Below are positions 33,545 through 47,243 of a stretch of 64,000 bases of DNA, in pieces. Position 1 is the first letter of the stretch. Every line of letters begins with the position of its first letter. Source of the stretch: Solirubrobacteraceae bacterium (GTDB lineage: Bacteria > Actinomycetota > Thermoleophilia > Solirubrobacterales > Solirubrobacteraceae); NCBI GenBank assembly GCA_965198695.1, contig CBDAPW010000002.1:37768-101767 (forward strand), written 5' to 3'. The translations under genes and the position numbers were made by a program. The notes under the pieces are model-generated. The model did no database searches, was not told the DNA's origin, and saw only the letters and a program-made list of their open reading frames with translations.

Positions 33545-35152
33545 CTACCCCTTGGTGCGCACATAGACATACGTCGGCCAGGACCGCAGGTCCGCGGGTG
33601 GGCGCAGGCGCAGGCGCGTGATGGCGCCGGGCAACAGGCGGAAGTCCCGGGCCAGCTGGGGGGCGAGCCAGGTGGGGGGCGGCTCGGCGTCGAGCACCAC
33701 GGCTTCGACATGGTCGCGGTTGAGCGAGCCGACCAGCGCGCGGTTGAGTTCGGTCCGCCCGCGGGCGCTCTTGGAGCGCAGGATCTCCTGGAGGCCGTCG
33801 GCCTGGGCGAAGCTGCCCTTGCCGGCCAGGGTCCCGTACCAGGGATGGCGCAGGACGAGGACGGGTCCGGGCAGCTTGCGCAGGGCGGTCTCCAGCTCGG
33901 TCCCCGCGCGTCGGTCCTCGGTGGTGGGGATCGCCCGGTTCGGGTATTCGTGCCGGATCAGCGACACGGTCTGGAGAGCGACCAGGGCGGTGGCCAGCGC
34001 CACCCCGAGCAGGCCGCCGCGGCGGTGGAGCAGGCCGAAGGCGCAGCCGCCGATCCCCGCACACGCCACGTACCCGGGCATCAGCGTGTTGAGGTAGCTG
34101 CCGGAGTGGATGACCGACACCCAGGCGGCGACGAGCAGGCCGATGGCGGCGGCGAGGTCGTACCAGAAGGGCCAGGCCAGCACGTCTGAGATCACCGACC
34201 GGGTCGACGCGGAGCGGCCCCGCGTGTGCCCGCCGTCCGCCGCGGTTCCGTGGGCTCCCGCGTCCCGCCGCTCGCCCCGCGCGCGGAGCAGGAACACCGC
34301 CGCCCCGGCCAGCAGACCGAGCGCGGCCAACAGGGTCAGCCAGTGCAGGTGGTGATAGAGCGACATGCGCCAGAACCCCACATACTCCTTCTGCACCGAG
34401 GGCTGGCCGGCCAGTTCGCTGACGATGTAGTAGCGGTACCACCCATGGGTCAGGGCGTCGAGGATCAGCGTCGAGGCTCCGCCCAGCACCGCCAGGGTGA
34501 CGAGTGCCGACACCATCGCCCGCGGGCGGGCGAACACCGCGGCGACCAGGGCCGGGGCGACGGCGATGAGGCCGACCTGCTTGGTGAAGAACGCAAGGAA
34601 GCCGACGATCCCCACGAGGATCCCCGCCCCGACTCCCTCGGCGCGGCGTCCCAACCACAGCGCGAGCAGGGACAGGGCCAGGTACATCGAGTCGAGGCGC
34701 CCGACGTCGAAGAACCAGCCGGTCAGCCCGTACATGGCGCCGAACAGGCCCACGGCGACCACGCCGGCGATCCAGTCGCGGCTGGCGTGGCGCACGTAGA
34801 GGAACAGCGCGCCGAAGCTCACCAGCGAGAAGCACCCCGAGACGATCCGCAGCGGCAGGAAACCCAGGCCGGTGATCTCGGCGACCGCCGCGGAGAGGTA
34901 GGAGAACAGCGGCGTGTAGGTGAAGCCGGCGTAACGCAGGTTCGGCGCCGCGTACAGCGACTGGCCGTGCATGACCCGGCCGACCAGCTCCACCGTGCCG
35001 CCCTCGAGCCAGTCGAGCTCGTAGGGATAGCCGATTCGGTGTCCAGCCACCCACAGGTAGATCGCCACCGGAACGGCGGCGATGACCAGCGAGAGTCCTG
35101 CGATCAGCTTGGCGAGTTCGCGCCCAGGCGCGCGAACCAGCGCTCGCCGCAT
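33545..35152 (-). CDS. Polytopic membrane glycosyltransferase (GT-C, ArnT/PMT-like)
   Basis: YPYELDWLEG..YTPLF, GRLDS, FFTKQ, many TM helices. Start ATG 35152. Confidence 0.7.
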   Translation of the reverse strand: MRRALVRAPGRELAKLIAGLSLVIAAVPVAIYLWVAGHRIGYPYELDWLEGGTVELVGRVMHGQSLYAAPNLRYAGFTYTPLFSYLSAAVAEITGLGFLPLRIVSGCFSLVSFGALFLYVRHASRDWIAGVVAVGLFGAMYGLTGWFFDVGRLDSMYLALSLLALWLGRRAEGVGAGILVGIVGFLAFFTKQVGLIAVAPALVAAVFARPRAMVSALVTLAVLGGASTLILDALTHGWYRYYIVSELAGQPSVQKEYVGFWRMSLYHHLHWLTLLAALGLLAGAAVFLLRARGERRDAGAHGTAADGGHTRGRSASTRSVISDVLAWPFWYDLAAAIGLLVAAWVSVIHSGSYLNTLMPGYVACAGIGGCAFGLLHRRGGLLGVALATALVALQTVSLIRHEYPNRAIPTTEDRRAGTELETALRKLPGPVLVLRHPWYGTLAGKGSFAQADGLQEILRSKSARGRTELNRALVGSLNRDHVEAVVLDAEPPPTWLAPQLARDFRLLPGAITRLRLRPPADLRSWPTYVYVRTKG

Positions 35153-35805
35153 TGCCACTTCGCTTCGACTGACAGGCCGGCGAGCTCGGCGATCGCGGCG
35201 ATCTCGGAGACCGACACGCGGGCCCAGGGGAACCACACGCTGACGTCGCTGTCGCTCTCGATCCGGGCCAACGTGGTGCGGGTGTCGGTGCCGGGTGCCT
35301 CCAGCTCGGCCAGGACCGTCCCATCGTGGCGCAGCAGCGAGCGCAGGCGCGAGAGCAGCCGCTTGGGTTGGCCGCCGATGCCGATGTTGCCGTCCAGCAG
35401 CAGCGTGGTCGCCCACTCCCCGGCGCCCGGCACCTCGCCGAACACGTCGCCGACCACCGCATGGGCGCCGCGCCGACAGGCGTACTCGACGGCCACCGGG
35501 CTGAGGTCGACCCCGAGCGCGTAGACGCCCCGGGTGCTCAGCGCGTGAAGATGACGTCCCGGCCCACAGCCGACATCGAGCACCGGTCCGGCGATGCCGT
35601 CGAGCAGCTCGTGGTCATAGAGGTCCGCGTTGGCCATGAAGCGCCCGACCGCCAGCGGGGCCAGGGAGCCGTCGGCGAAGCGCACCTGCATCGGCCCCTG
35701 GACATCGCGGTCACTCAGCGTGGCGGGGGCGTTGACGACGCCGGCCCGGCCGAGCGCGTCAATACCCGCCAGTGCCTGCTCATAGAGCTCGAGTGGACTC
35801 CTCAT
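35104..35805 (-). CDS. Class I SAM-dependent methyltransferase
   Basis: VLDVGCGPGRH, GVDLSP, LLLDGNIGIGG, WFPWARV. Confidence 0.9.
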   Translation of the reverse strand: MRSPLELYEQALAGIDALGRAGVVNAPATLSDRDVQGPMQVRFADGSLAPLAVGRFMANADLYDHELLDGIAGPVLDVGCGPGRHLHALSTRGVYALGVDLSPVAVEYACRRGAHAVVGDVFGEVPGAGEWATTLLLDGNIGIGGQPKRLLSRLRSLLRHDGTVLAELEAPGTDTRTTLARIESDSDVSVWFPWARVSVSEIAAIAELAGLSVEAKWQCGERWFARLGANSPS

Positions 35806-36500
35806 GCGGCCCGTTCGAAACGGTCGGCCGTGGCGTGGTCGTCTGCGGTGAGGACTCCCGAGGGGTCACAACGCGCCAAGGCAGCGGCGAACCGCGTGTC
35901 GGGCGCCTCGGCGGCGACGCGGTAGGCCTCTTGAATGGTGTCGACGTCGCGCAGATGACCGGTGGTGGCGACCGACAGTCCAAGCTCGCCGAAACGCTCG
36001 AGCTGGCGCTCGTAGGTCTGTTCGGTGCTCATGGGGACGCCGTCGAAGGCGCCGGTCACGTGGGCGTTGAAGCCCACGCACCAGTAGCCGCCGTCAAAGG
36101 TCGGGGCGATCACCGCGTCGATCCCGGGGCGGCGCAGCTGCGCCAGCGCGGCGGCGAGGTGCGCGGAGGTGAGCTGGGGGGTGTCCATGCCCACGAGCAG
36201 CGTGGGGCCGCGGTGGCCGGCGTCGAGGAACACGTCGGAGAAGGCGGCGGCGAGCCGCTCACCCAGGCCGTTCCCACGCTGGGTGAGGGTCACGAAGTCG
36301 GGCGGCGCCCAGGCGTCCGGATCGCCCTCGAACACGAGGATCCGGGACGCGGCGGGGGTGTTGGTGACCGCCGCGAGGGTGTCGCACAGCGCGGCGGCGG
36401 CCAGCTCCGCGGCCTGCTCGGGGGTGCACGGCGGACACAGCCGGGTCTTGACCCTCCCGGGAACCGGCTGCTTGGCGATGACCAGAAGAGCGGGATCCAC
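35802..36500 (-). CDS. DUF2064 / TIGR04282-type transferase (CofC-like fold)
   Basis: IAKQPVPGRVKTRL, QRGNGLGERL, LVGMDTPQL, DGGYW, LRDVDT. GTG 36500. Confidence 0.9.
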   Translation of the reverse strand: MDPALLVIAKQPVPGRVKTRLCPPCTPEQAAELAAAALCDTLAAVTNTPAASRILVFEGDPDAWAPPDFVTLTQRGNGLGERLAAAFSDVFLDAGHRGPTLLVGMDTPQLTSAHLAAALAQLRRPGIDAVIAPTFDGGYWCVGFNAHVTGAFDGVPMSTEQTYERQLERFGELGLSVATTGHLRDVDTIQEAYRVAAEAPDTRFAAALARCDPSGVLTADDHATADRFERAA

Positions 36501-36520
36501 GTGATCCCATTCAATGCCCG

Positions 36521-36565
36521 ATTCATTACGAAAGAAAAACACAGCGCTCTCATTCCTTACGAAAG
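36521..36565. promoter_or_regulatory. Direct repeat ATTC(A/C)TTACGAAAG x2 (31-bp period), probable response-regulator site
   Basis: 13/14 identity at 36521-36534 and 36552-36565 in an AT-rich divergent intergenic region. Confidence 0.6.
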
Positions 36566-36624
36566 GGAGACAGGAACGGATCAGAGGTCCAAATCCAACC
36601 GTCGCCGTGAGAGGCTCCGAGTCG

Positions 36625-37971
36625 GTGCCGATACCGCGCTCCCCCAACCTCACCTCCACCCTGGCGCGTCTGCGCCCCGATCCCGACCGGCCGCCCCCGG
36701 GTCCGTTCCGCCCCGGCTTCTGGCGCAGCCCGCTGCGTTCCCCGCGGCTCACCGCGATGCTCGGCCTGGTGCTGCTGATCGGGCTGCCGGTGGTGGCGGT
36801 CACCGGGCTGTTCTCCAACGACGCCTACCAGCCCGGGCTCGGCATGAACGCGTTGGGCCGCGACATCCACGGGCCCCTCGATATCTACCTGTTCGGCTGG
36901 CCCTCGGGCCCCACCTGGCTCTATGCCCTCAGCCAGGGCGCCCACGTGACCCTCGGCCTGGCGCTGTTCCCGGTGGTGCTGGCCAAGCTGTGGTCGGTCA
37001 TCCCCAAGTTGTTCGAGTGGCCACCGGTACGCAGCCCCGCCCATGCGCTGGAGCGCCTCACCCTGGCCTTCCTGGTCGGCGGGGCGCTGTTCGAGTTCGT
37101 CACCGGCATCCTCAACATCCAGTACTGGTACGCGTTCAAGTTCGACTTCCCCCAGGCCCACTACTACGGCGGCTGGGTGTTCATCGGTGCGCTGATCGCC
37201 CACATCAGCGTGAAGTTCCCCACCATGCGCCGCTCCCTGCGGACCCGCGAGGCGGTCCTGGCCGCCGCGGTCACCCCCACCGACGGCGACATGGCGCAGT
37301 GGGCACCGCCCGTCACGGTGGCGACCGCACACGACGGGTTGACCAGCCCGAACCCCCGGCCCCCGAGCATGTCCCGCCGGGCGCTGCTCGGTTCCGTCGG
37401 CGTCGCGTCGGGGATCCTCTTCCTCCAGGGCCTCGGCCAGTCCCTCGGCGGGCCGACACGGGTGCTCGCCTTCCTGCTCCCCCGCGGGGCCACCCGGCCG
37501 GGTCCGCTCGGCTTCCCGGTCAACCGGACCTGGGCGATCACCAAGCTGAAGACCAGCGTGGTGTCCGACGCCAACTGGAAGCTGACGGTCAGCGGCAAGC
37601 GCACGGTCAAGCTCAGCCGCGCCGAGCTGGCCGCCATGCCCCAGTACACCCATGCGCTGACCATCGGCTGTGTCGAGGGCTGGTCGACCACCCAGCACTG
37701 GACCGGGGTGCGCCTGGCCGACCTGGCCCGTCTGGTCGGCAGCGAGGTCGGCGCGGTCAGCGCGACGAACATCTCCCTGGCCGCGGGCGCCTACGGGCAG
37801 GCCACCCTCGCTCATGAGAATGTCGCCAACGAGCAGACCCTGGTGGCGCTCAAGGTCAACGGACGCACCCTGCCCCTTGACCACGGCTACCCGGCACGGA
37901 TCATCGCTCCGGCGATCCCGGGTGTTCACTGCACCAAGTGGCTGACCGAGATCCAGTTCCGGGAGGAGTGA
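36625..37971 (+). CDS. Membrane-anchored molybdopterin oxidoreductase (sulfite oxidase/MsrP-like)
   Basis: N-terminal TM helices with His residues, CVEGWS Mo-ligand Cys, DHGYPAR, KWL. Start approximate. Confidence 0.88.
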   Translation: MPIPRSPNLTSTLARLRPDPDRPPPGPFRPGFWRSPLRSPRLTAMLGLVLLIGLPVVAVTGLFSNDAYQPGLGMNALGRDIHGPLDIYLFGWPSGPTWLYALSQGAHVTLGLALFPVVLAKLWSVIPKLFEWPPVRSPAHALERLTLAFLVGGALFEFVTGILNIQYWYAFKFDFPQAHYYGGWVFIGALIAHISVKFPTMRRSLRTREAVLAAAVTPTDGDMAQWAPPVTVATAHDGLTSPNPRPPSMSRRALLGSVGVASGILFLQGLGQSLGGPTRVLAFLLPRGATRPGPLGFPVNRTWAITKLKTSVVSDANWKLTVSGKRTVKLSRAELAAMPQYTHALTIGCVEGWSTTQHWTGVRLADLARLVGSEVGAVSATNISLAAGAYGQATLAHENVANEQTLVALKVNGRTLPLDHGYPARIIAPAIPGVHCTKWLTEIQFREE

Positions 37972-38414
37972 GCGTGCGGCGAATCTGGCAGCGCTACGGA
38001 GCCGGGCCCGGCCATCTGCTCGCGAGCATCGCGAGTCTGGCCATCGCCGCGGCGGCGATCATCGGCTGGACCCAGCGACCCAAGGACCTCGAGTCGGTGC
38101 TCATCTGGTTCATCGCCGCGATCCTGCTCCACGACCTGGTGCTGCTGCCGATCTACTCACTCGCCGACCGGGTGACCATCGGCTTCCTGCCGCGCCGCGC
38201 CGCGGTGTACGTGCGGGTGCCGGCGCTGATCAGCCTGCTGCTGCTCGCCGCGGTGTTCCCCACCGTGCTCGGCTACGGGGCCCGCACCGAGCACAACGTC
38301 AGCGCCATCGTCGAACACGGCTACCTGGAGCGCTGGCTGATCCTCACCGGCGTGCTGTTCGCGCTGTCGGGGCTCGCCTACGCTCTTCGCGGACGCTTAT
38401 CCGGCGATCAGTAG
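37968..38414 (+). CDS. Small membrane protein coupled to the Mo-oxidoreductase
   Basis: GTGA overlap, about 4 TM helices, ILLHDLVLLPIY. Confidence 0.78.
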   Translation: MSVRRIWQRYGAGPGHLLASIASLAIAAAAIIGWTQRPKDLESVLIWFIAAILLHDLVLLPIYSLADRVTIGFLPRRAAVYVRVPALISLLLLAAVFPTVLGYGARTEHNVSAIVEHGYLERWLILTGVLFALSGLAYALRGRLSGDQ

Positions 38415-38425
38415 GGTTCCCAGCA

Positions 38426-39091
38426 GTGGTTGTCGCCCAGGCCGAGGGGTTGGTCAAGACCGTCGGCGAGGGACGCGCCGCGCGGCGCGTCCTCGATGGC
38501 ATCGACCTGTCCATCGAAACCGACGAGGTGGTCGCGGTGCTCGGGCGCTCGGGCACCGGCAAGTCGACGCTGATGCACCTGCTCGGCGGCCTCGACATCC
38601 CCGACGCCGGTCAGATCAGCATCGCCGGGGAACGCCTCACCGGCCGTCGTCCCCAGCTCCAGGACCGCATCCGCCTGCGCCACATCGGCTTCGTCTTCCA
38701 GCAGTTCCAGCTCATCGAGGAACTCACCGGCCGCGAGAACGTGCTCGTGCCCACGCGACTGCCCGGGGCACCGGCGGGCGGCGCCCAGCGGGCCGCCCAG
38801 CTGATCGCCGACCTCGGCCTCGCACCGGTCGCCGACCATCGGCCCCACGAGCTGTCGGGCGGTGAGCAGCAGCGCTTCGCCATCGCGCGGGCACTGGTCA
38901 ACGACCCCCAGCTCATCCTCGCCGACGAGCCGACCGGCAGCCTCGACGCCGACAACGGGGCAATCGTCCTCGAGCTGCTCTCCAACCTGCCCGGGCGCGC
39001 GGTGATGCTGGTCACCCACGAGGTCGAATCCGCGGCGATCGCCGACCGGGTGCTCACCCTCGAGGACGGCGCGCTGGTGCGAAGTCGATGA
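38426..39091 (+). CDS. ABC transporter ATP-binding protein (LolD/MacB-like)
   Basis: GRSGTGKST, LSGGEQQR, ILADEPTGSLD, VTHE. Confidence 0.95.
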   Translation: MVVAQAEGLVKTVGEGRAARRVLDGIDLSIETDEVVAVLGRSGTGKSTLMHLLGGLDIPDAGQISIAGERLTGRRPQLQDRIRLRHIGFVFQQFQLIEELTGRENVLVPTRLPGAPAGGAQRAAQLIADLGLAPVADHRPHELSGGEQQRFAIARALVNDPQLILADEPTGSLDADNGAIVLELLSNLPGRAVMLVTHEVESAAIADRVLTLEDGALVRSR

Positions 39092-41397
39092 TCGCCGGAG
39101 TCGGGCGGCTCGGCGGCGCGCTGACCGACGCGCGCCAGATGCTGCGCACGCGCCGGCGCCGGACCCTGCTCAGTGCCGTCGGCGTGGTGCTGGCGGGCGC
39201 GATGCTGTCGGCGGCCATCGTCATCGCCGACGGACTCGGCGACGGCTTCAGTCGCGCCGCGCACAAGGCCGACCTGGGTGACCTGATCGTGCGCTTCGAT
39301 CCCGAGTCGACGTCGCTGGTGACCAAGCGGCTGGACGCCCTGCCGGATCTGTCGGGCTTCGCCCTGCGCAACGAGGTGACGAGCGTCGGGGTGCGCTTCG
39401 GCGGGCACTCGGCCAAGACGGCGGTGGCCGAGGTGATCGGTTCGGGCGCTCGCCAGGGCTACGCGGTGGTGGCCGGCCACAACCTCAGCGGCGGCGGGCA
39501 CGACATCCTCGTCGAGCCGGCCTGGGCGTCGGCCTGGAAGATCTCCATCGGCGACTCGATCGACGTCGGCGGACTGGGCCCCGAGCGGGTCGTCGGCTAT
39601 GCCGAGGGACCCGATGACGTCGGCTATCCGTTGGGCGCGCCGCGCTTCTATCTGTCCGAGGGCCAGATCAACGCGCGCTTCGGGGTGCAGAAGAACCCCC
39701 GGGTCAACTTCGCCGAGGTGTGGCTGAACAACCCCAAGTACGTCAGCCAGGTGCTCGTTCAGGCGCGCGATGAGAGCTTCGGCCTCCATGACCTGCAGTT
39801 CGCCACGCGGGCCGGTGTGCAGGTGCTGATCAGCCAGGCGGCGGGGATCGTCATCGACCTGCTCGTCGCCCTGTCGGTGATCGCCCTGGCCACCGCCGCG
39901 GTGCTGCTCGCCTCCTCGGCCCGGGCCGAGGTGCAGCGCCGCCTGCGCTCGATCGGCATCCGTCGCGCGGTCGGCGCCACCCGACGCCAAGTCGCGTTCA
40001 CCCAGGGGGTGGAGGCGGCGATCGTCGCGGTCCCCGCGGCCACCCTCGGGGTGCTCATCGGCTACCTGGTCACCGACGGTCCGGGCAACCGGCTGCTCGG
40101 CCTGCTCAACCAGCCCGGTCCCGGCAGCGCCCTCATCCTGCCCCTCCTCGCCGGCTGGGCCGTGGCCGTGGCCGTGCCGGTGCTCGGCGCGGCGTGGCCG
40201 GCGTGGTCGGCGGCGGGACGCGGGGTGCTCACCCTCCTGCGCGGCGCCGATGTGGCCCGCCGCGGCAAGCGCCGAGGCTCCGCGACGACCAGCGGCGGAG
40301 GCTTCGAGCGCGGTGGGCTGGCTCTGCTCGGCGCCCGGCTGCAGACCGCCCGACGTGCCCGCCTGATCGCCACGATCACCATGCTCACCTGCTCCACCGC
40401 CTTCGTCCTGCTGCTCATCGCGCTGGCGGGAACGCTCAGCTCGCTGGAGACCGACCCCCAGGTGCTCGGCAAGCACTACGAGCTGACCGCCTCGGACCCT
40501 CCCGCCGAGGCGGCCCGGATCGCGACGCTGCCGGGCGTGGCGGCCGCCGCCCCGCGCTATGAGGTCCACGCCGTCGACGGCTACTCCCTCGGTGAGCTGA
40601 TCGACGTGATCGCCTATCCGGGCAACCACGTCCCCTTCGAGTCCCCGGCACTCGATTCGGGTCACCACCTCCAGGGCGATGATGAGGCCGAGGTCGGCGT
40701 GGGGCTGGCCAACGCGCTCGGCTTGGCGCCGGGCTCGGGCCTGCTCATGGAGCTGCCCAACGGCAAGCAGCTCAGCCTCAAGGTGTCGGGCACCGTCAGC
40801 TCGCTGGCCTATCAGGGCCTGGTCGCCTACATCCCGGCCTCGGCGCTGCTGGCCGCCGATCCCAGCGCGAGTGAGAGCATCGCCATCCTGCTCAAGCCCA
40901 AGGCCGACCAGGCCACGGTCATCTCAGAGCTGCGGGCGATCGGCGCGCACCCCAACATCGCCTCGGGGGCGGTCGCCCGCGGGGCGCCGCTGGTGGCGGT
41001 GCTCAAGACGATCCTCATCGCCATCGCGATCGTAGACGGGCTGGTGTGCATCTACGCCCTCGTCCAGGCCTGCGCGCTGACCATGCAGGAGCGTCGACGC
41101 ACCGTCGCGGTGCTGCGCGCGACCGGCGCGGACGCCGGGGCGATCCGACGCCTGCTCGGCGGGGCGGTGCTCGCGCTCATCGCTCCGGCGGCGCTGATCG
41201 GGGTGCTGGTGGAATGGCTGGCCTTGGGGCCAGCCCTGTCGAAGCTGGCGGCCAGCTACGCCACACTCGATCTCAACCCCACGCTCACCGAGCTCGCCGC
41301 CGTGGTCATCGGCCTCGCCCTGTCCGGTGTCGCCGCCGTGTTCTGGGTGACGCGCAGCGCGGTCCGCGAACCGGTGGTCAAGGGGCTGGCGGGATGA
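39088..41397 (+). CDS. FtsX/MacB-like ABC permease (duplicated architecture)
   Basis: Two repeats of an extracytoplasmic domain followed by RRLRSIGIRRAVGA and ERRRTVAVLRATGA TM blocks. Confidence 0.88.
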   Translation: MIAGVGRLGGALTDARQMLRTRRRRTLLSAVGVVLAGAMLSAAIVIADGLGDGFSRAAHKADLGDLIVRFDPESTSLVTKRLDALPDLSGFALRNEVTSVGVRFGGHSAKTAVAEVIGSGARQGYAVVAGHNLSGGGHDILVEPAWASAWKISIGDSIDVGGLGPERVVGYAEGPDDVGYPLGAPRFYLSEGQINARFGVQKNPRVNFAEVWLNNPKYVSQVLVQARDESFGLHDLQFATRAGVQVLISQAAGIVIDLLVALSVIALATAAVLLASSARAEVQRRLRSIGIRRAVGATRRQVAFTQGVEAAIVAVPAATLGVLIGYLVTDGPGNRLLGLLNQPGPGSALILPLLAGWAVAVAVPVLGAAWPAWSAAGRGVLTLLRGADVARRGKRRGSATTSGGGFERGGLALLGARLQTARRARLIATITMLTCSTAFVLLLIALAGTLSSLETDPQVLGKHYELTASDPPAEAARIATLPGVAAAAPRYEVHAVDGYSLGELIDVIAYPGNHVPFESPALDSGHHLQGDDEAEVGVGLANALGLAPGSGLLMELPNGKQLSLKVSGTVSSLAYQGLVAYIPASALLAADPSASESIAILLKPKADQATVISELRAIGAHPNIASGAVARGAPLVAVLKTILIAIAIVDGLVCIYALVQACALTMQERRRTVAVLRATGADAGAIRRLLGGAVLALIAPAALIGVLVEWLALGPALSKLAASYATLDLNPTLTELAAVVIGLALSGVAAVFWVTRSAVREPVVKGLAG

Positions 41398-42956
41398 CCC
41401 GGGGTGGATCGGACGGGCGGCGGTCGGGCGGCCTGAACCGCCGGGAGCTGCTGGTCGCCGGGGCGGTCGGCGCCGGTGCGCTCGCGCTGGCCGGCTGTGG
41501 CGGCCCGGGCGCTGTCGTGGCCGGCGACGGCTCGACGCTGAAGGCCCGCTGGGTCGACCCGAGCGGGGACGGCCAGCTGACCCTCGGCTCCGGTGAGGCG
41601 CTGGTCAACCGCACCGAGCTCGGCGCCGCCCGGGCGCTCACCGGCGAGCTGGCCCGGCTCGCCCACGTCACCGACGCCCACGTCATGGACGCCTCCTCAC
41701 CCGCCCGCGTGCCGTTCCTGGCCCGGCTCGGCCCGCCGGTGCAGTCGACCTTCCGTCCCCACGAGACGCTGACCACCCAGGTCCTGTCCGGTGCCGTCAA
41801 CGCGATCCGGGCGCTCAAACCCCAACTGGTGATCCAGGGTGGCGACCTGGTCGACAACGACCAGAACAACGAGCTCGCCCACGCGCTGGCGCTGCTGGCC
41901 GGCGGGCGGGTCCGCCCGGGCAGCGGGGCCGACGGGTACTACGGCGTGCAGCTGCCCTCGGACCCCGACCCGTTCTACTACCGCCCCGCGATCGACGCGC
42001 CGCGCCACCCGGGGATGCTCAACGCGGCGGTGCGGCCGTTCCGCTCCGCCGGACTCGGAGTGGAGTGGCTGCCGGTGCTCGGCGACCACGACGGGCTGGT
42101 GGCCGGCGAGCTCGTCCCCGACGCCCAGACCCAGGCGCTGGCGACCGGGGACCGGGCGCTGTGGGAGCTGCCGACCAACCTCAAGCTGCCCGACGGCTTT
42201 CGGCTCAACCCGAGCAACTCGCCCGACGGTCCCCCGGACCCCTCCTTCGTCCAGTCCTTCCTCGCCCAGGCGCTCGCCGGACCGACGGTCAAGGTCCCCG
42301 CCGACCCCGCGCGCTATGAGCTCAGCTTTCCCGAGATGATCGGGCGCCTGTGGCGCGGCGCCGGAGTGGCGCACCAGAGCGGCGTCTCGGCTGCGAGCTC
42401 CGCGACGGCGTCTCAACGCCTCGACTACGTGCGTGACGTCGGCGCCTCGCTGCGGGTCATCGTGCTCGACCTGGTGCGCCGCGGCGGCGGCTCGGGCGGA
42501 CAGGTCGTCGGCGGACAGTCGGCCTGGCTGGCCCAGCAGATCGCCTCGGCGGGGCAGCGCTGGATCATCGTGGTCACCCACTTTCCGTTGGTGTCGGCCT
42601 CCGGCGGCGCGCAGCTGCTCGACGTGATGGACCGCGCCCCGCGGGTGGTGGCCGCCCTGGCCGGCCACATCCACCGCAACCAGATCGTCGCGCGCAAGAC
42701 CGCCGCGGGGGGCTACTGGCTGATCACCACCGCGTCGCTGATCGATTTCCCCCAGCAGGCCCGGGGCCTCAGCGTGATGTCCACCGCTGACGGTGGGGTG
42801 GCCCTGGAGACCTGGATGCTCGACCACGTCGGCGCCGGCACGCTGGGCACGATCAGCCGCCAGCTGTCCTACCTCGACGCCCAGGGCGGCCGGGCCAACG
42901 GCTTCAGCGGCGCCGCGACCGACCGCAACGTCCGCTTGTTCCGCGCTCCCGTGTGA
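41394..42956 (+). CDS. Tat-exported lipoprotein metallophosphoesterase (TIGR03767-like)
   Basis: NRRELL twin-Arg, LAGC lipobox, TDAH, GGDLVDN, GDHD, AGHIHRN. Confidence 0.82.
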   Translation: MTRGGSDGRRSGGLNRRELLVAGAVGAGALALAGCGGPGAVVAGDGSTLKARWVDPSGDGQLTLGSGEALVNRTELGAARALTGELARLAHVTDAHVMDASSPARVPFLARLGPPVQSTFRPHETLTTQVLSGAVNAIRALKPQLVIQGGDLVDNDQNNELAHALALLAGGRVRPGSGADGYYGVQLPSDPDPFYYRPAIDAPRHPGMLNAAVRPFRSAGLGVEWLPVLGDHDGLVAGELVPDAQTQALATGDRALWELPTNLKLPDGFRLNPSNSPDGPPDPSFVQSFLAQALAGPTVKVPADPARYELSFPEMIGRLWRGAGVAHQSGVSAASSATASQRLDYVRDVGASLRVIVLDLVRRGGGSGGQVVGGQSAWLAQQIASAGQRWIIVVTHFPLVSASGGAQLLDVMDRAPRVVAALAGHIHRNQIVARKTAAGGYWLITTASLIDFPQQARGLSVMSTADGGVALETWMLDHVGAGTLGTISRQLSYLDAQGGRANGFSGAATDRNVRLFRAPV

Positions 42957-43455: not shown

Positions 43456-43459
43456 GGAC

Positions 43460-44113
43460 TCAGGACAGCCCGGCGAGCAGGCGCGACATGTCCCGGGCGG
43501 CGCGCAGCGTGCCGGTCACGCTGCCGCTGACCTTGGACTCCCCGCCGGCCCGCACCCGGTAGCGCACCGGGGTCTCCTCGAGGCGCCATCCGGCCGCCGC
43601 CGCGGCCAGGACCATCTCCAGCGGCCAGCCGAAGGCGCGGTCGCGGAGTCCGAGCGCCAGCAGCGCCTCACGACCGCCACAGCGCATCGGTCCGAGGTCG
43701 GTCAGCTTCGTCCCGGCGCGTCGGGTCAGCTCCCAGGCGATGAAGCGGTTGGCCATGCGTGCGTGGATCGGCCAGGCGCCGGGGTCGGGCCGCCGAGCCC
43801 CCATGACCAGGTCAGCCGCACCGGCTGCCACCGGGCCGCTCACCCGCGGCAGCTCGGCCGGGTCGAGGGAGCCGTCGGCGTCCATGAAGCAGACCAGATC
43901 GCTGCGCGCCGCGCTGAGCCCGGCGAAGCAGGCCGAGCCGAACCCGCGCCGCGGTTCTGAGACCACCCGGGCACCGAGCCGACGGGCCACCGCGGCGGAT
44001 CCGTCGTCGGAGCCGTTGTCGACCACCAGGGGCTCGTAGCCGGCGGGAAAGCCCTCCAGCGCATGGGGCAGGGCCTCGGCCTCGTTGAGTACGGGGAGGA
44101 TGACCTCGATCAT
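43460..44113 (-). CDS. Glycosyltransferase family 2 (polyprenol-phosphate sugar synthase-like)
   Basis: ILPVLNEA, VVDNGSDDGS, FMDADGS, DLGPMR, GWPLEM, SKVSG. Confidence 0.93.
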   Translation of the reverse strand: MIEVILPVLNEAEALPHALEGFPAGYEPLVVDNGSDDGSAAVARRLGARVVSEPRRGFGSACFAGLSAARSDLVCFMDADGSLDPAELPRVSGPVAAGAADLVMGARRPDPGAWPIHARMANRFIAWELTRRAGTKLTDLGPMRCGGREALLALGLRDRAFGWPLEMVLAAAAAGWRLEETPVRYRVRAGGESKVSGSVTGTLRAARDMSRLLAGLS

Positions 44114-44203
44114 GGCGCCCGAGACTAGTGCCCTGCGGCAGGACACCAGCTGTGAGTGGGCGGTGCGGATTGTGGCCCCATGCGATCACTTTCCGCGTCG
44201 AAG

Positions 44204-44212
44204 TCCTTACGA
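44204..44212. promoter_or_regulatory. TCCTTACGA motif identical to 36554-36562
   Basis: Located in the second divergent promoter of the same cluster. Confidence 0.45.
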
Positions 44213-44263
44213 CTTGAGAAAACCGGGGCGTGACGCGGGCATTGGGTCTACGGTTTGGTCGCG

Positions 44264-45304
44264 ATGATCCTCGTCACCGGCGGCGCCGGCTTCATCGGCT
44301 CACACATCGTCGACCTCCTCATCGAGGCCGGTCAACCCGTGCGGGTGCTCGATGCGGTCCTCGCCAGCGCCCACCGTGAGACCCCGGAGGTCAACCCCGG
44401 CGCCGAGCTGGTCATCGGCGACGTGCGTGACCCCGAGGTCGTGGCCGGCGTGCTCGACGGGGTGACCGCGGTGTGTCACCAGGCGGCCATGGTCGGCCTC
44501 GGCGTCGACATCCTCGACATGCCGAGCTACGTCGGGCACAACGATCTCGGCACCGCCGTGCTGCTGGCCGAGCTGGCGCGCGCCAGCTTCGCCGGGCGCG
44601 TCGTGCTCGCCTCGAGCATGGTGGTCTACGGCGAGGGCCGCTACCGCTGTGAGGAGCACGGTCTCGTCGCCCCGCCGGCGCGTGAGGTCGCCGCGCTCGA
44701 GGCGGGGGACTTCGAGGTGGCCTGCCCGGAGTGTGGCCGGCCACTGCGTCCCGAGCCGATCCCCGAGAGCGCGGCGGTCGATCCGCGCAACGTGTACGCG
44801 GCGACCAAGTTGCACCAGGAGCACCTCGCCTTCAGCTTCTCGCGGGAGACCGGGGTGCCGGTCACCGCACTGCGCTACCACAACGTCTATGGCCCGCGGA
44901 TGCCCCGCGACACCCCCTACGCGGGGGTTGCCTCGATCTTTCGCAGCGCCCTGGCCGGCGGCGTCGCCCCCCGCGTGTATGAGGACGGTGGTCAGCTGCG
45001 CGACTTCATCCACGTCCACGACGTCGCCCGCGCCAACCTGCTCGCCCTCACCGCCGAGGCGCCGGTGAGCGGCAGCTTCAACGTCGCCACCGGCCACCCG
45101 GCCAGCGTGCTCGACATGGCCCGGGCGCTGGCCGCCGCCTTCCCCGGCGACCTCGAACCCGAGGTGACCGGGCAGTTCCGCCTGGGGGACGTCCGCCACG
45201 TCTTCGCCTCAGCCGATCTCGCCCGCGAGCGGCTCGGCTTCAGCGCCGAGATCGGCTTCAGCGAGGGGATGCGCGAGTTCGCCGACGCGCCGTTGCGCGC
45301 ATGA
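44264..45304 (+). CDS. NAD-dependent epimerase/dehydratase
   Basis: TGGAGFIGS, HQAA, ASSMVVYG, YAATK, LRYHNVYGP, RDFIHV, GDVRH. Confidence 0.94.
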   Translation: MILVTGGAGFIGSHIVDLLIEAGQPVRVLDAVLASAHRETPEVNPGAELVIGDVRDPEVVAGVLDGVTAVCHQAAMVGLGVDILDMPSYVGHNDLGTAVLLAELARASFAGRVVLASSMVVYGEGRYRCEEHGLVAPPAREVAALEAGDFEVACPECGRPLRPEPIPESAAVDPRNVYAATKLHQEHLAFSFSRETGVPVTALRYHNVYGPRMPRDTPYAGVASIFRSALAGGVAPRVYEDGGQLRDFIHVHDVARANLLALTAEAPVSGSFNVATGHPASVLDMARALAAAFPGDLEPEVTGQFRLGDVRHVFASADLARERLGFSAEIGFSEGMREFADAPLRA

Positions 45305-46041
45305 ACCTCCCGGCCACATCGGGAATGTTGGCCGAGAGCGAGAGCCGCGGCACCGTGCTCGTGGTCGATGACGAGCCGACGATCACCGAGGTGGTCTCGC
45401 GCTATCTGCACCGGGCCGGCTACCGCGCCGAAACCGCCGCCGACGGCGCCCAGGCGATCGCCGCGGTCGCCAGCACGCGTCCCGACCTGGTGGTGCTCGA
45501 CCTCATGCTGCCCCGCATCGACGGGCTCGAGGTCATGCGGCGCCTGCGCGAGCAGGACCGCGGGGGCGGCGCCGGTCCCGTCCCGGTGATCCTGCTGACC
45601 GCCCGTGGGGAGGAGTCCGACCGCATCGCCGGTCTGCGCCTCGGCGCCGACGACTACGTGGTCAAGCCGTTCTCCCCGGCCGAGCTGGTCGCCCGGATCG
45701 ACACCGTCCTGCGGCGGGTCGAACGGCCCGTCGAGAGCAGCCCGCTCATCGAGATCGGCGAGATCGTGGTCGACCCGGCGGCACGTCGGGCGCTGGTCGG
45801 CGGCGTCGAGGCCCAGCTGACCGTGCGTGAGTTCGACCTGCTGCTGTTCTTCATCCAGCATCCCGGTCAGGTGTTCCGCCGCGAGCAGCTCATGGACGCC
45901 GTCTGGCAGTACTCCTTCTACACGGACACCTCCACCGTCACCGTGCACATCCGTCGGCTGCGGGCCAAGATCGAGCGCGATCCCACCCAGCCGCGTTACC
46001 TGCAGACGGTCTGGGGCGTCGGCTACCGGTTCCAGCCATGA
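45301..46041 (+). CDS. OmpR/PhoB family response regulator
   Basis: VVDDE, LDLMLP, DDYVVKPF, REFDLL, VTVHIRRLR, TVWGVGY. Confidence 0.96.
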   Translation: MNLPATSGMLAESESRGTVLVVDDEPTITEVVSRYLHRAGYRAETAADGAQAIAAVASTRPDLVVLDLMLPRIDGLEVMRRLREQDRGGGAGPVPVILLTARGEESDRIAGLRLGADDYVVKPFSPAELVARIDTVLRRVERPVESSPLIEIGEIVVDPAARRALVGGVEAQLTVREFDLLLFFIQHPGQVFRREQLMDAVWQYSFYTDTSTVTVHIRRLRAKIERDPTQPRYLQTVWGVGYRFQP

Positions 46042-47243
46042 CGCTGTGGCGCATCCTCGCCGCCGCCTGTACCGCCGCCGCCCTGGGGGTCAGCCTGGCC
46101 GTGCTCGGCTTCGACCACACTCTGGTGGTGCTCGGGGTTCTGGTGGGCATCGCCCTGGTCACGCTGGCCGGCACCGAGTGGGTGATGCGCTCGCGGCGGC
46201 GTGGGGCGGCGGCACCGATCTCGGTGCAGCTGGGGATCGCCATCACCCTGGTGGTCGGGCCGCTGCTGGTGGCGCTGCTCGTGCTCGGTCTGACCATGTT
46301 CGTGTCCGGCACCGACGCCGCACTGGTCGGGGTCATCGTCGCGCTCAGCGGCGTCCTCGGCGTGGGCGCCGCCGCCCGCATCTCCCGCGGGCTGTCGGCT
46401 GACGTCGAGGCGATCCGCGACGGCCTGATCCGGGTCGGAGAGGGTGACCGCGAGGTCCGGGTCTCGGCCTCGAGTGCCGCCGAGCTGGGGGAGCTGGCCT
46501 CACAGGCCAGCGCGATGATCGCCCGTCTCGCCCATGAGGAGGCCGCCCGCGCCGGCTCGGAGGAGGCGCGGCGCCAGCTCATCGCCCACGCCTCCCACGA
46601 CCTGCGCACCCCGGTCACCTCGCTGCGGCTGCTCGCCGCCGCGATCGACGACGAGGTGGTCGACGGGCAGCTGCGCGGCGAGTACGTCCACCGGATGCTC
46701 ACCCACATCGAGGTGCTCTCAGCGCTGATCGACGACCTGTTCGAGCTCTCGCGGATCCAGGCCGGCGACATCAGCTGGAGCCTCGAGCAGGTCGCGGTGG
46801 ATGAGCTGGTGGACGAGACGGTCGCTGCCATGCGGGTGCAGGCCGAGGCCCGCGGCGTCGCCGTCACCGCCGAGATGCCCGAGCGTCTCGCTCCGATCCG
46901 CGGTAACCCGGAGAAGCTCCAGCGGGTGCTGTTCAACCTCATCCAGAACGCCATCCGGCACTCCCCGGCCGACGGGACCGTGGTGGTGCGGGCCCAGAGC
47001 GGCGCCGAGATGATCGAGGTGGAGGTCGAGGACGGCGGCGCGGGCATCCCGGCCGCGGAGCGCGAGCTGATCTTCGACGCCTTCTACCGCGGTGGCCTCG
47101 ACACCTCCCGCTCCACCGACGGGGCCGGCCTGGGCCTGGCCGTGGCCCGGGCGATCGTCGACGCCCACGGGGGCGAGATCTGGCTGGCCGCCGGTGAGGC
47201 GACCGGCACGCGGGTGCGCTTCAGCGTCCCCATCGCCGCCTGA
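46038..47243 (+). CDS. HAMP + HisKA sensor histidine kinase
   Basis: TM helices, SHDLRTP, NLIQNAIRH, DGGAG, GAGLGL. Confidence 0.95.
   Translation: MTLWRILAAACTAAALGVSLAVLGFDHTLVVLGVLVGIALVTLAGTEWVMRSRRRGAAAPISVQLGIAITLVVGPLLVALLVLGLTMFVSGTDAALVGVIVALSGVLGVGAAARISRGLSADVEAIRDGLIRVGEGDREVRVSASSAAELGELASQASAMIARLAHEEAARAGSEEARRQLIAHASHDLRTPVTSLRLLAAAIDDEVVDGQLRGEYVHRMLTHIEVLSALIDDLFELSRIQAGDISWSLEQVAVDELVDETVAAMRVQAEARGVAVTAEMPERLAPIRGNPEKLQRVLFNLIQNAIRHSPADGTVVVRAQSGAEMIEVEVEDGGAGIPAAERELIFDAFYRGGLDTSRSTDGAGLGLAVARAIVDAHGGEIWLAAGEATGTRVRFSVPIAA

What the first reader, a model, noticed from the sequence alone, without database searches (positions are those of the whole stretch)
33545..47243. 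14-kb two-component-controlled glycoconjugate-modification system (GT2, DUF2064, methyltransferase, GT-C, epimerase, Mo-oxidoreductase, FtsX-ABC, Tat phosphoesterase)
Seen in sequence: two divergent promoter units. DUF2064-MTase-GT-C faces Mo-oxidoreductase-membrane partner-ABC-FtsX-phosphoesterase, and GT2 faces epimerase-RR-HK. Most junctions overlap and both promoters share a motif. Established: GT2 plus GT-C pairs transfer sugars via polyprenol phosphate outside the membrane. The DUF2064/TIGR04282 and GT2 pair is linked to radical-SAM ArsS arsenosugar clusters in other bacteria, but no radical SAM gene is here. The core gene set recurs in actinomycetes without a known product, as far as I recall. 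Inference: a stress-induced pathway making and exporting a methylated, redox-modified sugar for envelope or protein decoration. Here it is extended by an FtsX exporter and an exported phosphoesterase. This is the best candidate for an undescribed system in the window.
Basis: partly seen in the sequence, partly recalled or inferred. Interest (0 to 1): 0.72.

Follow-up and report, generated by a model that had tools for sequence, protein, structure and literature searches.

The report
Extended methylthioxylose-type envelope sugar cluster
This 14-kb locus is a soil actinobacterium's (Solirubrobacterales) version of the pathway that tuberculosis bacteria use to attach the sulfur sugar methylthioxylose to their envelope. 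Here it has its own sensor-regulator pair and operator, a methyltransferase, a membrane haem-molybdenum enzyme, a different final transferase and a lineage-specific ABC/phosphoesterase module.

Summary
The gene inventory, the two divergent units, the overlapping junctions and the shared promoter motif are all real. GT2, DUF2064 and the SDR epimerase are one-to-one orthologues (51-55%, 38-41% for DUF2064) of the genes that lie in PE-rich mycobacteria in the published mtx order: MTA phosphorylase, epimerase, GT2 (MtxS position), DUF2064, then GT-C (MtxT position) on the opposite strand. MtxS/MtxT cap lipoarabinomannan with 5-methylthio-xylofuranose.

The window carries the ancestral extended form, which is widespread in Actinomycetota. 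This form adds a methyltransferase, a Sco3746-type haem b/MoCo membrane enzyme with a small membrane partner, and an OmpR-type two-component system.

Points specific to this window:
- The terminal GT-C is not MtxT-type. It belongs to a narrow ArnT-like family.
- The operon is split, and each half keeps a conserved operator (GTyC-N6-TTCGTAAG). A matrix built from other genomes ranks the three window sites 1-3 in the whole 4.2-Mb genome.
- An ABC/FtsX/Tat-lipoprotein phosphoesterase trio is a Solirubrobacterales-only, facultatively linked add-on.
- The MTA-phosphorylase-like gene lies elsewhere, coupled to a second DUF2064 paralogue.

The product, the acceptor, and the roles of the Mo enzyme and methyltransferase remain inferred.

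The parts
33545..35152 (-). Terminal GT-C glycosyltransferase of an ArnT-like, Solirubrobacterales-restricted family. It is not MtxT-type. The start is ambiguous (35152 or 35158).
   Evidence: Pfam GT87 36.5 bits and PMT_2. AF2 model pLDDT 89.7. Best PDB folds are ArnT 5f15/5ezm (E 1e-7, TM 0.52), then STT3/PglB, AftA and Emb. Invariant YPYELDWLEGG loop. hhalign against the MtxT family gives probability 2%. Only 122 relatives were found, mostly Solirubrobacteraceae MAGs.
35104..35805 (-). Class I SAM methyltransferase, translationally coupled to DUF2064 (ATGA overlap). It is a conserved member of the extended cluster and is absent from the reduced Mtb-type cluster.
   Evidence: Pfam Methyltransf_25/11. 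Present in 48 of 53 full loci. AF2 pLDDT 93.6. Nearest folds are small-molecule and NDP-sugar methyltransferases (XhnM1, CcbJ, TylM1, CalS10). Absent from L083-L086 and present in L087-L088.
35802..36500 (-). DUF2064/TIGR04282 GT-A-like protein at the Rv0540 position. Its inferred role is activation of 5-methylthioribose-1-phosphate to a nucleotide sugar.
   Evidence: TIGR04282 144 bits (cut-off 134). PDB 3cgx, E 6e-18. 38-41% identical to the gene next to the GT2 in mycobacteria. Fused to the GT2 in Kitasatospora and Streptacidiphilus.
36524..36542 (-). Operator copy 1 (GTGTTTTTCTTTCGTAATG). It is proximal, about 20 nt upstream of the DUF2064 start, and sense to DUF2064-MTase-GT-C.
   Evidence: Best hit (22.0 bits) in the whole 4.2-Mb genome for a matrix built only from other genomes.
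36555..36573 (-). Operator copy 2 (CTGTCTCCCTTTCGTAAGG), 31 bp from copy 1, in the DUF2064 / Mo-enzyme divergent region.
   Evidence: Third-best genome-wide hit, 20.5 bits. Direct repeat confirmed.
36607..37971 (+). Sco3746-type polytopic haem b / molybdenum-cofactor oxidoreductase. It has an N-terminal membrane domain, an internal twin-arginine motif and a C-terminal exported MoCo domain.
   Evidence: Oxidored_molyb 90.6 bits. Conserved His144/216/230, RR288-289 before the last TM segment, and invariant CVEGW. Family described in PMC5449189. Present in 48 of 53 loci.
37974..38414 (+). Small 4-TM partner of the Mo enzyme. No Pfam or NCBIfam family. The start could be 37938, 37968 or 37974.
   Evidence: Coupled to the Mo gene, with a GGGAGGAG RBS. 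Conserved next to the Mo enzyme, including in mycobacteria at 36-37% identity.
38426..39091 (+). MacB/LolD-type ABC ATPase of the lineage-specific trio.
   Evidence: ABC_tran, LolD-like 196 bits. 63-81% identical copies in 15 Solirubrobacterales loci.
39088..41397 (+). 769-aa permease with two FtsX domains and MacB-type periplasmic domains.
   Evidence: FtsX x2 and MacB_PCD x2. Found only in Thermoleophilia loci.
41394..42956 (+). Tat-exported lipoprotein metallophosphoesterase, TIGR03767-like.
   Evidence: TIGR03767 182.6 bits (below cut-off 330) and Metallophos. RRELL plus LAGC. An orthologue is present in all 12 related genomes tested, often away from the cluster.
43460..44146 (-). GT2 polyprenyl-phosphate sugar synthase, orthologue of the MtxS-position gene.
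   Evidence: Glycos_transf_2. Best hit in each mycobacterial genome is the GT2 beside DUF2064 (E 1e-60 to 1e-63, 51-53% identity); the next-best hit is 1e-17 or weaker.
44205..44223 (-). Operator copy 3 (GTTTTCTCAAGTCGTAAGG), sense to GT2, in the GT2 / epimerase-RR-HK divergent region.
   Evidence: Second-best genome-wide hit, 21.3 bits.
44255..45304 (+). SDR nucleotide-sugar epimerase, orthologue of the epimerase that lies next to MTA phosphorylase in mycobacteria.
   Evidence: Epimerase 147 bits. 52-55% identical to the mycobacterial gene. Present in 52 of 53 loci.
45301..46041 (+). OmpR/PhoB-type response regulator.
   Evidence: Response_reg plus Trans_reg_C. 48-76% identical orthologues beside the cluster in Thermoleophilia, Acidimicrobiia, Streptomyces and PE-poor mycobacteria.
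46038..47243 (+). Histidine kinase with about four TM segments and no periplasmic sensor domain, followed by HAMP-HisKA-HATPase.
   Evidence: HisKA and HATPase_c. Hydropathy and conservation analysis.

Best explanation
The locus encodes a lipid-linked route that makes a 5-deoxy-5-methylthio-pentofuranose (methylthioxylose-type sugar, possibly further methylated) and attaches it to an envelope acceptor on the outer face of the membrane.

Inferred steps:
1. MTA is split by an MTA-phosphorylase-like enzyme encoded elsewhere (C3:1211077-1212006).
2. DUF2064 activates methylthioribose-1-phosphate to a nucleotide sugar.
3. The SDR enzyme epimerises it.
4. The GT2 loads it on polyprenyl phosphate.
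5. After flipping, an ArnT-like GT-C transfers it to an unknown acceptor.

Accessory parts:
- The methyltransferase tailors the sugar or its precursor.
- The Sco3746-type haem b/MoCo enzyme and its 4-TM partner act outside the membrane on the same chemistry. Most plausibly they use quinol electrons to return the sulfoxide form to the thioether.
- The OmpR-type regulator, driven by a membrane-embedded kinase, binds GTyC-N6-TTCGTAAG sites in both divergent regions and co-regulates the split operon halves.
- The ABC/FtsX/phosphoesterase trio is a Solirubrobacterales add-on, co-transcribed here with the Mo enzyme.

Shown: orthology, synteny, folds, operator conservation. Inferred: substrates, acceptor, direction of the redox step, regulator-operator pairing.
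For: Orthology to the mtx cluster:
- PE-rich mycobacterial genomes carry MTAP-epimerase-(3.5 kb)-GT2-DUF2064-<membrane GT. This matches the Rv0535-Rv0541c order.
- The window's proteins are 51-55% (GT2, epimerase) and 38-41% (DUF2064) identical to these.
- The GT2 match is a clear best hit (E 1e-60 against 1e-17 for the next).
- MtxS/MtxT functions and the MTA origin are published (PMC8780516, PMC12088412, PMC11127046).

Link to MTA phosphorylase:
- True MTAP genes lie in the related loci (cluster 14, 8 loci).
- In this genome the only MTAP-like gene is coupled to a second DUF2064 paralogue. That pair is conserved in 5 genomes.
- GT2-DUF2064 fusions exist.

Extended set:
- In 53 full loci: MTase 48, Mo enzyme 48, RR/HK 25.
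- All of these are also present in PE-poor mycobacteria (L087, L088) and all absent together from PE-rich ones.

Operator:
- 62 of 124 TTACGA hexamers in 1.4 Mb lie within 300 bp upstream of core genes.
- The matrix built from other genomes ranks the three window sites 1-3 of 8.4 million positions.
- Of 97 sites in the 80 loci, 41 sit sense-upstream of GT2, 12 of DUF2064, 13 of the Mo enzyme (no Mo-assigned site went into the training list, though a few training sites lie in shared DUF2064/Mo divergent regions) and 4 of MTAP.
- The motif is missing where the TCS is missing, and a GTCAC-N6-GTCAT variant is present where the TCS is present in mycobacteria.

Other:
- GT-C fold confirmed.
- Mo enzyme features match Sco3746.
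- The sulfoxide form of MTX exists in Mtb LAM (PMC8531672).
Against: - No chemistry or expression data exist for this organism. No RNA runs were found.
'Mycobacterial' rests on PE-family content, and the Rv gene order rests partly on my memory. The key paper (Angala 2017) is not held.
- The terminal GT-C is not homologous to MtxT at profile level. No MtxT homologue is in the genome. So acceptor and linkage are unknown.
- MTAP is not in the locus, and the genomic MTAP-like gene scores below NCBIfam cut-offs (155 against 275 bits).
- The methyltransferase has no role in the published pathway, so the product may differ from MTX.
- By sequence the MoCo domain is nearer to sulfite oxidases (E 1e-8) than to MsrP/YedY (E 0.012). 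The sulfoxide-reductase role is therefore not supported by similarity.
- When transcribed separately the ABC trio has no operator. Its orthologues lie far from the cluster in many relatives.
Confidence: 0.66

Rival explanations
1. Same architecture but a different sugar. The GT2/DUF2064/epimerase core in non-mycobacterial lineages handles another 5-substituted or ordinary pentose or hexose, for example an O- or S-methylated derivative made with the cluster's methyltransferase. Methylthioxylose would then be a mycobacterial specialisation.
For: The methyltransferase is nearly universal in the extended cluster and absent from the Mtb-type cluster whose product is known. Its nearest folds include NDP-sugar methyltransferases. 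MTAP is missing from most loci (8 of 80) and from this locus. The GT-C families differ between lineages.
Against: One-to-one orthology of three enzymes at 38-55% identity. MTAP sits inside the cluster in both extended and reduced mycobacterial forms and carries the operator in Kitasatospora and Streptacidiphilus. The MTAP-like/DUF2064b pair is present in this genome.
Confidence: 0.2
2. The 14 kb is a mosaic. Only GT2, DUF2064, MTase, epimerase, GT-C and the TCS work together. The ABC/FtsX/phosphoesterase trio, and possibly the Mo enzyme, are independent envelope functions that merely sit nearby (for example MacB-type export or lipoprotein handling, or sulfite or other S-oxide detoxification).
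For: The trio occurs only in Thermoleophilia. Its orthologues lie tens to hundreds of kb from the cluster in several relatives. It has no operator when separately transcribed. The MoCo domain resembles sulfite oxidases more than MsrP. Sco3746 homologues also occur in phyla beyond Actinomycetota (PMC5449189).
Against: The trio is adjacent in 15 of the related loci in four different arrangements. In two of them it sits inside core operons: MTase-ABC-FtsX-MPE-GT-C, and Mo-TM-ABC-FtsX-MPE. The Mo enzyme is in 48 of 53 loci and has its own operator copy where it is a separate unit (13 sites sense-upstream of the Mo gene, none listed for training). It is lost together with the TCS and MTase in PE-rich mycobacteria.
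Confidence: 0.25
3. An arsenosugar or selenosugar pathway, as the TIGR04282/TIGR04283 names suggest.
For: DUF2064 passes the TIGR04282 cut-off. The GT2 weakly matches TIGR04283 (43.9 bits against 182).
Against: No ArsS-type radical SAM is in the locus or genome (best 61 bits against cut-off 300). No arsenite methyltransferase signature is in the MTase. Orthology points to the mtx genes.
Confidence: 0.03
4. The two-component system is a Bce-like peptide-antibiotic sensing pair that serves the FtsX-type ABC transporter rather than the sugar genes.
For: The kinase lacks a periplasmic sensor domain. An FtsX-type ABC transporter lies 4 kb away.
Against: RR/HK orthologues sit beside GT2-DUF2064 in Streptomyces, Kitasatospora, Acidimicrobiia and mycobacteria, all of which lack the ABC trio. 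The operator lies before GT2, DUF2064 and the Mo enzyme, not before ABC.
Confidence: 0.05

Closest known systems
Mycobacterium tuberculosis methylthioxylose (MTX) capping cluster: MtxS (Rv0539), Rv0540, MtxT (Rv0541c), plus epimerase and MTA phosphorylase (Angala et al. 2017, cited in PMC8780516, PMC11127046, PMC12088412)
   Same: Orthologous GT2, DUF2064 and SDR epimerase. The logic is the same: nucleotide sugar, then polyprenyl-phosphate sugar, then extracytoplasmic GT-C transfer. There is a link to MTA phosphorylase.
   Different: - The terminal GT-C belongs to an unrelated (ArnT-like) family.
- MTAP is not in the locus.
- Extra methyltransferase, haem/MoCo enzyme with partner, dedicated two-component system with operator, and ABC/FtsX/phosphoesterase trio.
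- The host has no known lipoarabinomannan.
Sco3746 family of dual Sec/Tat-inserted haem b-MoCo membrane proteins (Tooke et al. 2017, PMC5449189); distant fusion analogue of E. coli MsrQ/MsrP
   Same: Polytopic N-terminal domain with conserved His residues, a twin-arginine motif before the last TM segment, and a C-terminal Oxidored_molyb domain with a conserved Cys.
   Different: No substrate is known for the family. Here it sits in a sugar-pathway regulon. Sequence similarity to sulfite oxidases exceeds that to MsrP.
PmrAB-controlled Arn pathway (ArnC GT2, ArnT GT-C) of Gram-negative bacteria
   Same: A two-component system controls a GT2 that makes an undecaprenyl-phosphate sugar and an ArnT-fold GT-C that decorates an envelope molecule outside the membrane. 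ArnT is the best structural match of this GT-C.
   Different: The sugar, its origin, the acceptor (lipid A is absent here) and the phylum all differ. There is no homology beyond fold and family level.
Arsenosugar systems with ArsS radical SAM plus TIGR04282/TIGR04283 transferases
   Same: The same DUF2064 family, and a related logic of handling a 5'-substituted 5'-deoxyadenosine-derived pentose.
   Different: No ArsS or ArsM is present. The GT2 is far below the TIGR04283 cut-off.

Membership tests
Mycobacterial mtx (methylthioxylose) cluster | GT2 orthologous to MtxS (polyprenyl-phospho-MTX synthase) | tested here: met
   The best hit in each of 4 mycobacterial genomes is the GT2 beside DUF2064 (E 1e-60 to 1e-63, 51-53% identity). 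The next-best hit is 1e-17 or weaker.
Mycobacterial mtx (methylthioxylose) cluster | DUF2064 gene immediately after the GT2 (Rv0540 position) | tested here: met
   38-41% identity. It is adjacent to the GT2 in L083-L088. In the window the two genes are separated by an operon split, but each keeps the operator.
Mycobacterial mtx (methylthioxylose) cluster | SDR epimerase orthologue | tested here: met
   52-55% identical to the epimerase next to MTAP in L083-L088.
Mycobacterial mtx (methylthioxylose) cluster | MTA phosphorylase in the cluster | tested here: not met
   None in the window. The only MTAP-like gene is at C3:1211077-1212006 (TIGR01694 155 bits, below cut-off 275), coupled to a DUF2064 paralogue.
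Mycobacterial mtx (methylthioxylose) cluster | MtxT-type GT-C | tested here: not met
   hhalign of the window GT-C family against the MtxT-position family gives probability 2%. No MtxT-type homologue is in the genome.
Mycobacterial mtx (methylthioxylose) cluster | Product is 5-methylthio-xylofuranose on a lipoglycan | not testable with these tools
   Needs sugar analysis of envelope fractions.
Sco3746-type haem b/MoCo dual Sec-Tat protein | Polytopic N-terminus with conserved His, twin-arginine before the last TM, C-terminal MoCo domain | tested here: met
   His144/216/230, RR288-289, invariant CVEGW and Oxidored_molyb 90.6 bits. The exact TM count (5) is only approximated by hydropathy.
MsrP-like sulfoxide reductase | Closer to MsrP/YedY than to sulfite oxidases | tested here: not met
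   PDB sulfite oxidases score E 1e-8; YedY 1xdq scores E 0.012. NCBIfam SoxC 41.9 bits against MsrP 34.4 bits, both far below cut-off.
GT-C glycosyltransferases (ArnT-like) | GT-C fold with acidic first extracytoplasmic loop | tested here: met
   The model (pLDDT 89.7) best matches ArnT 5f15 (E 1e-7), then STT3/PglB, AftA and Emb. Invariant Y42, E45, E50 in YPYELDWLEGG.
TIGR04282 / arsenosugar system | TIGR04282 member together with an ArsS radical SAM | tested here: not met
   TIGR04282 is met (144 bits against 134). ArsS is absent (best 61 bits against 300).
OmpR/PhoB two-component system with direct-repeat operator | Receiver plus winged-helix RR, HisKA kinase, conserved operator near regulated genes | tested here: inconclusive
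   Domains are met. A conserved 11-bp-phased element tracks with TCS presence. Binding was not tested.
BceRS/BceAB-type resistance module | TCS co-inherited with the FtsX-type ABC transporter | tested here: not met
   The TCS accompanies the sugar genes in lineages that lack the ABC trio.

The most novel reading that the evidence does not exclude
The ancestral actinobacterial mtx system is a self-contained surface redox device, and this window shows it re-targeted. A methylthio-pentose is installed on an envelope polymer; here an ArnT-like GT-C, not MtxT, puts it on a different acceptor. Oxidants convert the thioether to the sulfoxide. The quinol-fed haem b/MoCo enzyme reduces it back. A membrane-embedded kinase and its regulator tune the whole regulon through the GTyC-N6-TTCGTAAG operator. 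In Solirubrobacterales a MacB-type ABC machine and a Tat lipoprotein phosphoesterase process or release the decorated polymer.
Probability: 0.25. Interest if true: 0.75.

Novelty: new variant of a known kind. Interest (0 to 1): 0.52.

Why it matters
Methylthioxylose is treated as a near-unique marker of the tuberculosis lipoglycan. A recent review of pentofuranose addition says it is unclear whether the reaction exists outside lipoarabinomannan assembly (PMC11127046).

This locus and its 80 relatives show three things:
- The gene set is ancient and widespread in Actinomycetota, including lineages without known LAM.
- The tuberculosis-type cluster is a reduced form.
- The fuller form comes with an uncharacterised regulator pair (inferred to match S. 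coelicolor SCO3740/3741, which is listed without a name in PMC9739842), a methyltransferase, and an orphan haem-molybdenum enzyme family whose substrate is unknown.

The operator defined here gives a direct handle for mapping the regulon. The genetic link gives the Sco3746 family its first testable substrate hypothesis.

Tried and rejected
Literature:
- A search for 'DUF2064' found nothing.
- The key paper (Angala 2017) and a 2018 review are not held.

Expression:
- No usable RNA runs were found for this organism, so co-expression could not be tested.

Sequence and profile searches that gave nothing useful:
- PDB sequence searches gave no hit for the window GT-C or for the MtxT family.
- A 67-aa probe around the CVEGW cysteine motif did not retrieve MsrP/YedY. 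My recollection that this motif is MsrP-like therefore stays unverified.
- The sigma-70 and terminator scan was uninformative.

Readings rejected:
- The conserved element as a -10 hexamer or an ECF promoter. It has no T at the sixth position, and the two halves are 11 bp apart, not 16-17.
- The arsenosugar reading.
- The Bce-like reading.

Left open:
- The fourth-best operator hit (C3:108393) lies in an AT-rich stretch and faces no cluster-like gene. I treated it as probably chance.

Excluded from the system because they have no counterparts in related loci:
- The 139-aa ORF (43036-43455).
- The beta-propeller gene (47379-49322).

Full report
**What is in the window**

The window is about 71% G+C, so frames were chosen by codon-position G+C and by Pfam/NCBIfam hits. 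On the minus strand lie DUF2064/TIGR04282 (35802-36500), a SAM methyltransferase (35104-35805) and a GT-C protein (33545-35152). Diverging from them across 106 bp are:
- a membrane Oxidored_molyb protein (36607-37971);
- a 4-TM protein (about 37974-38414);
- an ABC ATPase (38426-39091);
- a double-FtsX permease (39088-41397);
- a metallophosphoesterase (41394-42956) with a twin-arginine signal and a lipobox.

A GT2 (43460-44146, minus) diverges across 108 bp from epimerase-RR-HK (44255-47243). Junctions inside the units are -4, about 0 or 11 nt. A 139-aa membrane ORF (43036-43455) has no relatives in any related locus and is not part of the system.

**Recurrence of the gene set**

I collected 80 loci around DUF2064 homologues from one-per-species genomes. 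They come from Solirubrobacterales and other Thermoleophilia, Acidimicrobiia, Streptomyces, Kitasatospora, Nonomuraea and others. I mapped the window's proteins onto them and clustered all their ORFs. Counts in the 53 loci with complete 10-kb flanks:

| Gene | Loci (of 53) |
|---|---|
| GT2 | 51 |
| Epimerase | 52 |
| Methyltransferase | 48 |
| Mo enzyme | 48 |
| RR and HK | 25 each |
| Any polytopic GT-C-like gene | 41 |
| FtsX | 11 |
| Phosphoesterase | 10 |

FtsX and the phosphoesterase occur almost only in Thermoleophilia. The usual order is GT2-DUF2064-MTase as one unit. Kitasatospora and Streptacidiphilus fuse GT2 and DUF2064 into one protein. A true MTA phosphorylase (PRK07823, 440 bits) lies in 8 of the loci.

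**Identification of the core**

A literature search on Rv0539/Rv0540/Rv0541c led to the methylthioxylose (MTX) cap of M. tuberculosis lipoarabinomannan. MtxS (Rv0539) makes the decaprenyl-phosphate-MTX donor, and MtxT (Rv0541c) transfers it to the mannoside caps (PMC8780516; PMC12088412). The precursor is 5'-methylthioadenosine (PMC11127046). The primary paper (Angala et al. 2017) is not held. Its five-gene model (MTAP, nucleotide-sugar formation, C-3 epimerisation, MtxS, MtxT) is quoted here from my memory of the abstract.

To test homology with real sequence, I drew 300 genomes from the order that contains a Micromonosporaceae locus and picked mycobacteria by PE-family content. I then located DUF2064 in them and fetched 20 kb around it.
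- Four PE-rich genomes show MTAP-epimerase-(3.5 kb)-GT2-DUF2064-<membrane protein. This is the Rv0535-Rv0541c order.
- The window's proteins match at 50-52% (GT2), 52-55% (epimerase) and 38-41% (DUF2064).
- The GT2 match is a clean best hit in every genome: E 1e-60 against 1e-17 for the next.
- Two PE-poor mycobacterial genomes carry the full extended set (MTAP, epimerase, HK, RR, GT2, DUF2064, MTase, 4-TM partner, Mo enzyme, MtxT-type protein).

The extended form is therefore ancestral across the phylum. The tuberculosis-type cluster is a reduced form that has lost the TCS, the methyltransferase and the Mo pair together.

**What differs in this window**

1. The GT-C is not MtxT-type.
   - The MtxT-position family (23 of 53 loci plus the mycobacteria) and the window's family are not detectably related: hhalign probability is 2%.
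   - The genome has no MtxT-type gene.
   - The window's GT-C belongs to a narrow family of about 120 proteins, nearly all from Solirubrobacteraceae MAGs.
   - Its AlphaFold model (pLDDT 89.7) best matches ArnT bound to undecaprenyl phosphate (5f15, E 1e-7), then STT3/PglB, AftA and Emb. An invariant YPYELDWLEGG loop is present.
   - It is a GT-C enzyme, but probably with a different acceptor.
2. The ancestral GT2-DUF2064-MTase unit is split. The GT2 now faces epimerase-RR-HK, and DUF2064-MTase-GT-C faces the Mo unit.
3. MTAP is absent from the locus.
   - The only MTAP-like gene in the genome (C3:1211077-1212006; best NCBIfam match MTAP, 155 bits, below cut-off) is immediately followed by a second DUF2064 paralogue (TIGR04282, 91 bits).
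   - This pair is conserved in five genomes of the same genus or family.
   - This independently ties the DUF2064 family to the product of MTA phosphorolysis.

**A conserved operator**

- In the 80 loci, 62 of 124 TTACGA hexamers lie within 300 bp upstream of a core gene. Nearly all are sense to GT2 or DUF2064.
- Thirty-seven such sites give the consensus GTyC-N6-TTCGTAAG. The two GT dinucleotides are 11 bp apart, as expected for an OmpR-family direct repeat.
- A matrix built only from other genomes was scanned over both strands of this 4.2-Mb genome. It ranks window positions 36524, 44205 and 36555 first, second and third.
- Across the 80 loci, 97 sites score at least 13 bits. Of these, 41 precede GT2 and 12 precede DUF2064. 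Thirteen precede the Mo enzyme; none of these was assigned to the Mo gene when the training list was drawn up, although a few training sites sit in shared DUF2064/Mo divergent regions. Four precede MTAP.
- In mycobacteria the element is absent before the GT2 where the TCS is absent. A GTCAC-N6-GTCAT variant is present in the RR-GT2 spacer where the TCS is present.

This makes the element the likely binding site of the cluster's regulator. It also places the Mo enzyme and MTAP in the same regulon as the sugar genes. Binding itself is untested. The kinase has about four TM segments and no periplasmic domain, so it probably senses a membrane-borne signal.

**The accessory enzymes**

The Mo protein has every feature described for Sco3746 (PMC5449189): three conserved His in TM segments, a twin-arginine pair before the last TM segment, and a C-terminal MoCo domain with an invariant CVEGW cysteine motif. 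That paper calls the family a distant fusion analogue of MsrQ/MsrP. By sequence, however, the MoCo domain is closer to sulfite oxidases (E 1e-8) than to YedY/MsrP (E 0.012). A sulfoxide-reductase role therefore rests on context, not similarity. The supporting points are:
- the sulfoxide form of MTX exists in Mtb LAM (PMC8531672);
- the enzyme is co-regulated with the pathway;
- it faces outward.

I give that role roughly one chance in three.

The methyltransferase model (pLDDT 93.6) resembles small-molecule and NDP-sugar methyltransferases (XhnM1, CcbJ, TylM1, CalS10). It has no role in the published pathway, so the product here may be a methylated variant.

From literature gene numbering, the S. 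coelicolor counterpart is inferred to be the SCO3740-SCO3746 region. SCO3740/3741 is an unnamed OmpR-type pair (PMC9739842), SCO3744 is listed among the putative methyltransferases (PMC6135851), and Sco3746 is the Mo protein.

**The ABC/FtsX/phosphoesterase trio**

The trio occurs next to the cluster in 15 related loci, all from Solirubrobacterales and allies, in four arrangements. Two of these place it inside core operons: MTase-ABC-FtsX-MPE-GT-C, and Mo-TM-ABC-FtsX-MPE as in the window. Against a strict link:
- the phosphoesterase orthologue is present in all 12 related genomes tested, often far from the cluster;
- separately transcribed copies lack the operator.

It is best seen as a lineage-specific, facultatively linked accessory. 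Its role is unknown.

**Rejected readings**

- Arsenosugar synthesis is not supported, because no ArsS-type radical SAM exists in the genome.
- A Bce-like pairing of the TCS with the ABC transporter is not supported, because the TCS travels with the sugar genes where the transporter is absent.

**Relation to earlier notes of this scan**

After reaching the MTX reading, I found that earlier agents had filed the same reading for similar clusters in other genomes. Those notes are not independent evidence. I tested here the parts they share with this report: the mycobacterial orthology and the Sco3746 features.

Findings I did not see in the excerpts of those notes (I saw only short excerpts):
- the operator and its regulon;
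- the GT-C replacement;
- the MTAP/DUF2064b pair;
- the status of the ABC trio.

**Verdict**

The core is a member of a known pathway type, not an undescribed system. The window holds a variant with an unrelated terminal transferase, plus the uncharacterised extended components. No expression or chemical data exist for this organism.

Noticed in passing
window 32025-33505 (-): The pyridine nucleotide-disulphide oxidoreductase gene just downstream of the GT-C is split by a frameshift near 32555-32620. Pyr_redox_2 lies in one frame and the dimerisation domain in another. The 68-79% identical copy in L026 is a single frame. This is either a pseudogene or a sequencing error.
   Followed up: partly
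own genome C3:1211077-1212653 (L082/L089), outside the window: An MTA-phosphorylase-like gene is immediately followed by a second, divergent DUF2064 paralogue (about 30-35% identical to the window's). The pair is conserved in five genomes of the same genus or family.
   Followed up: yes
own genome C3:108393 and C3:109850-111645, outside the window: The fourth-best operator-matrix hit lies in an AT-rich stretch with three TTGTCAC(A) repeats. It sits near a putative DNA methylase gene and a second GT2 + epimerase pair. No orientation fits a regulated gene, so it may be chance.
   Followed up: no
L022, L053, L057, L074, L078 (about 9.3-10.7 kb in each): Kitasatospora and Streptacidiphilus encode a single GT2-DUF2064 fusion protein (about 460 aa). 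In these loci MTA phosphorylase carries its own operator copy.
   Followed up: partly
L083-L086, just upstream of the GT2: In PE-rich mycobacteria the GT2 is directly preceded by a gene with long Pro/Thr/Gly-rich repeats. There is no operator and no intergenic spacer.
   Followed up: no
window 47379-49322 (-): A 647-aa beta-propeller protein (Lactonase/WD40-like hits) with a Pro-rich stretch lies convergent with the kinase gene. It has no counterpart in the 80 related loci, although an unrelated YNCE-like propeller gene sits in 7 of them.
   Followed up: no
L024, L031, L039, L061, L072: A MoaA (molybdenum cofactor biosynthesis) gene lies within 10 kb of the cluster in five loci. This is consistent with a functional Mo enzyme.
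   Followed up: no
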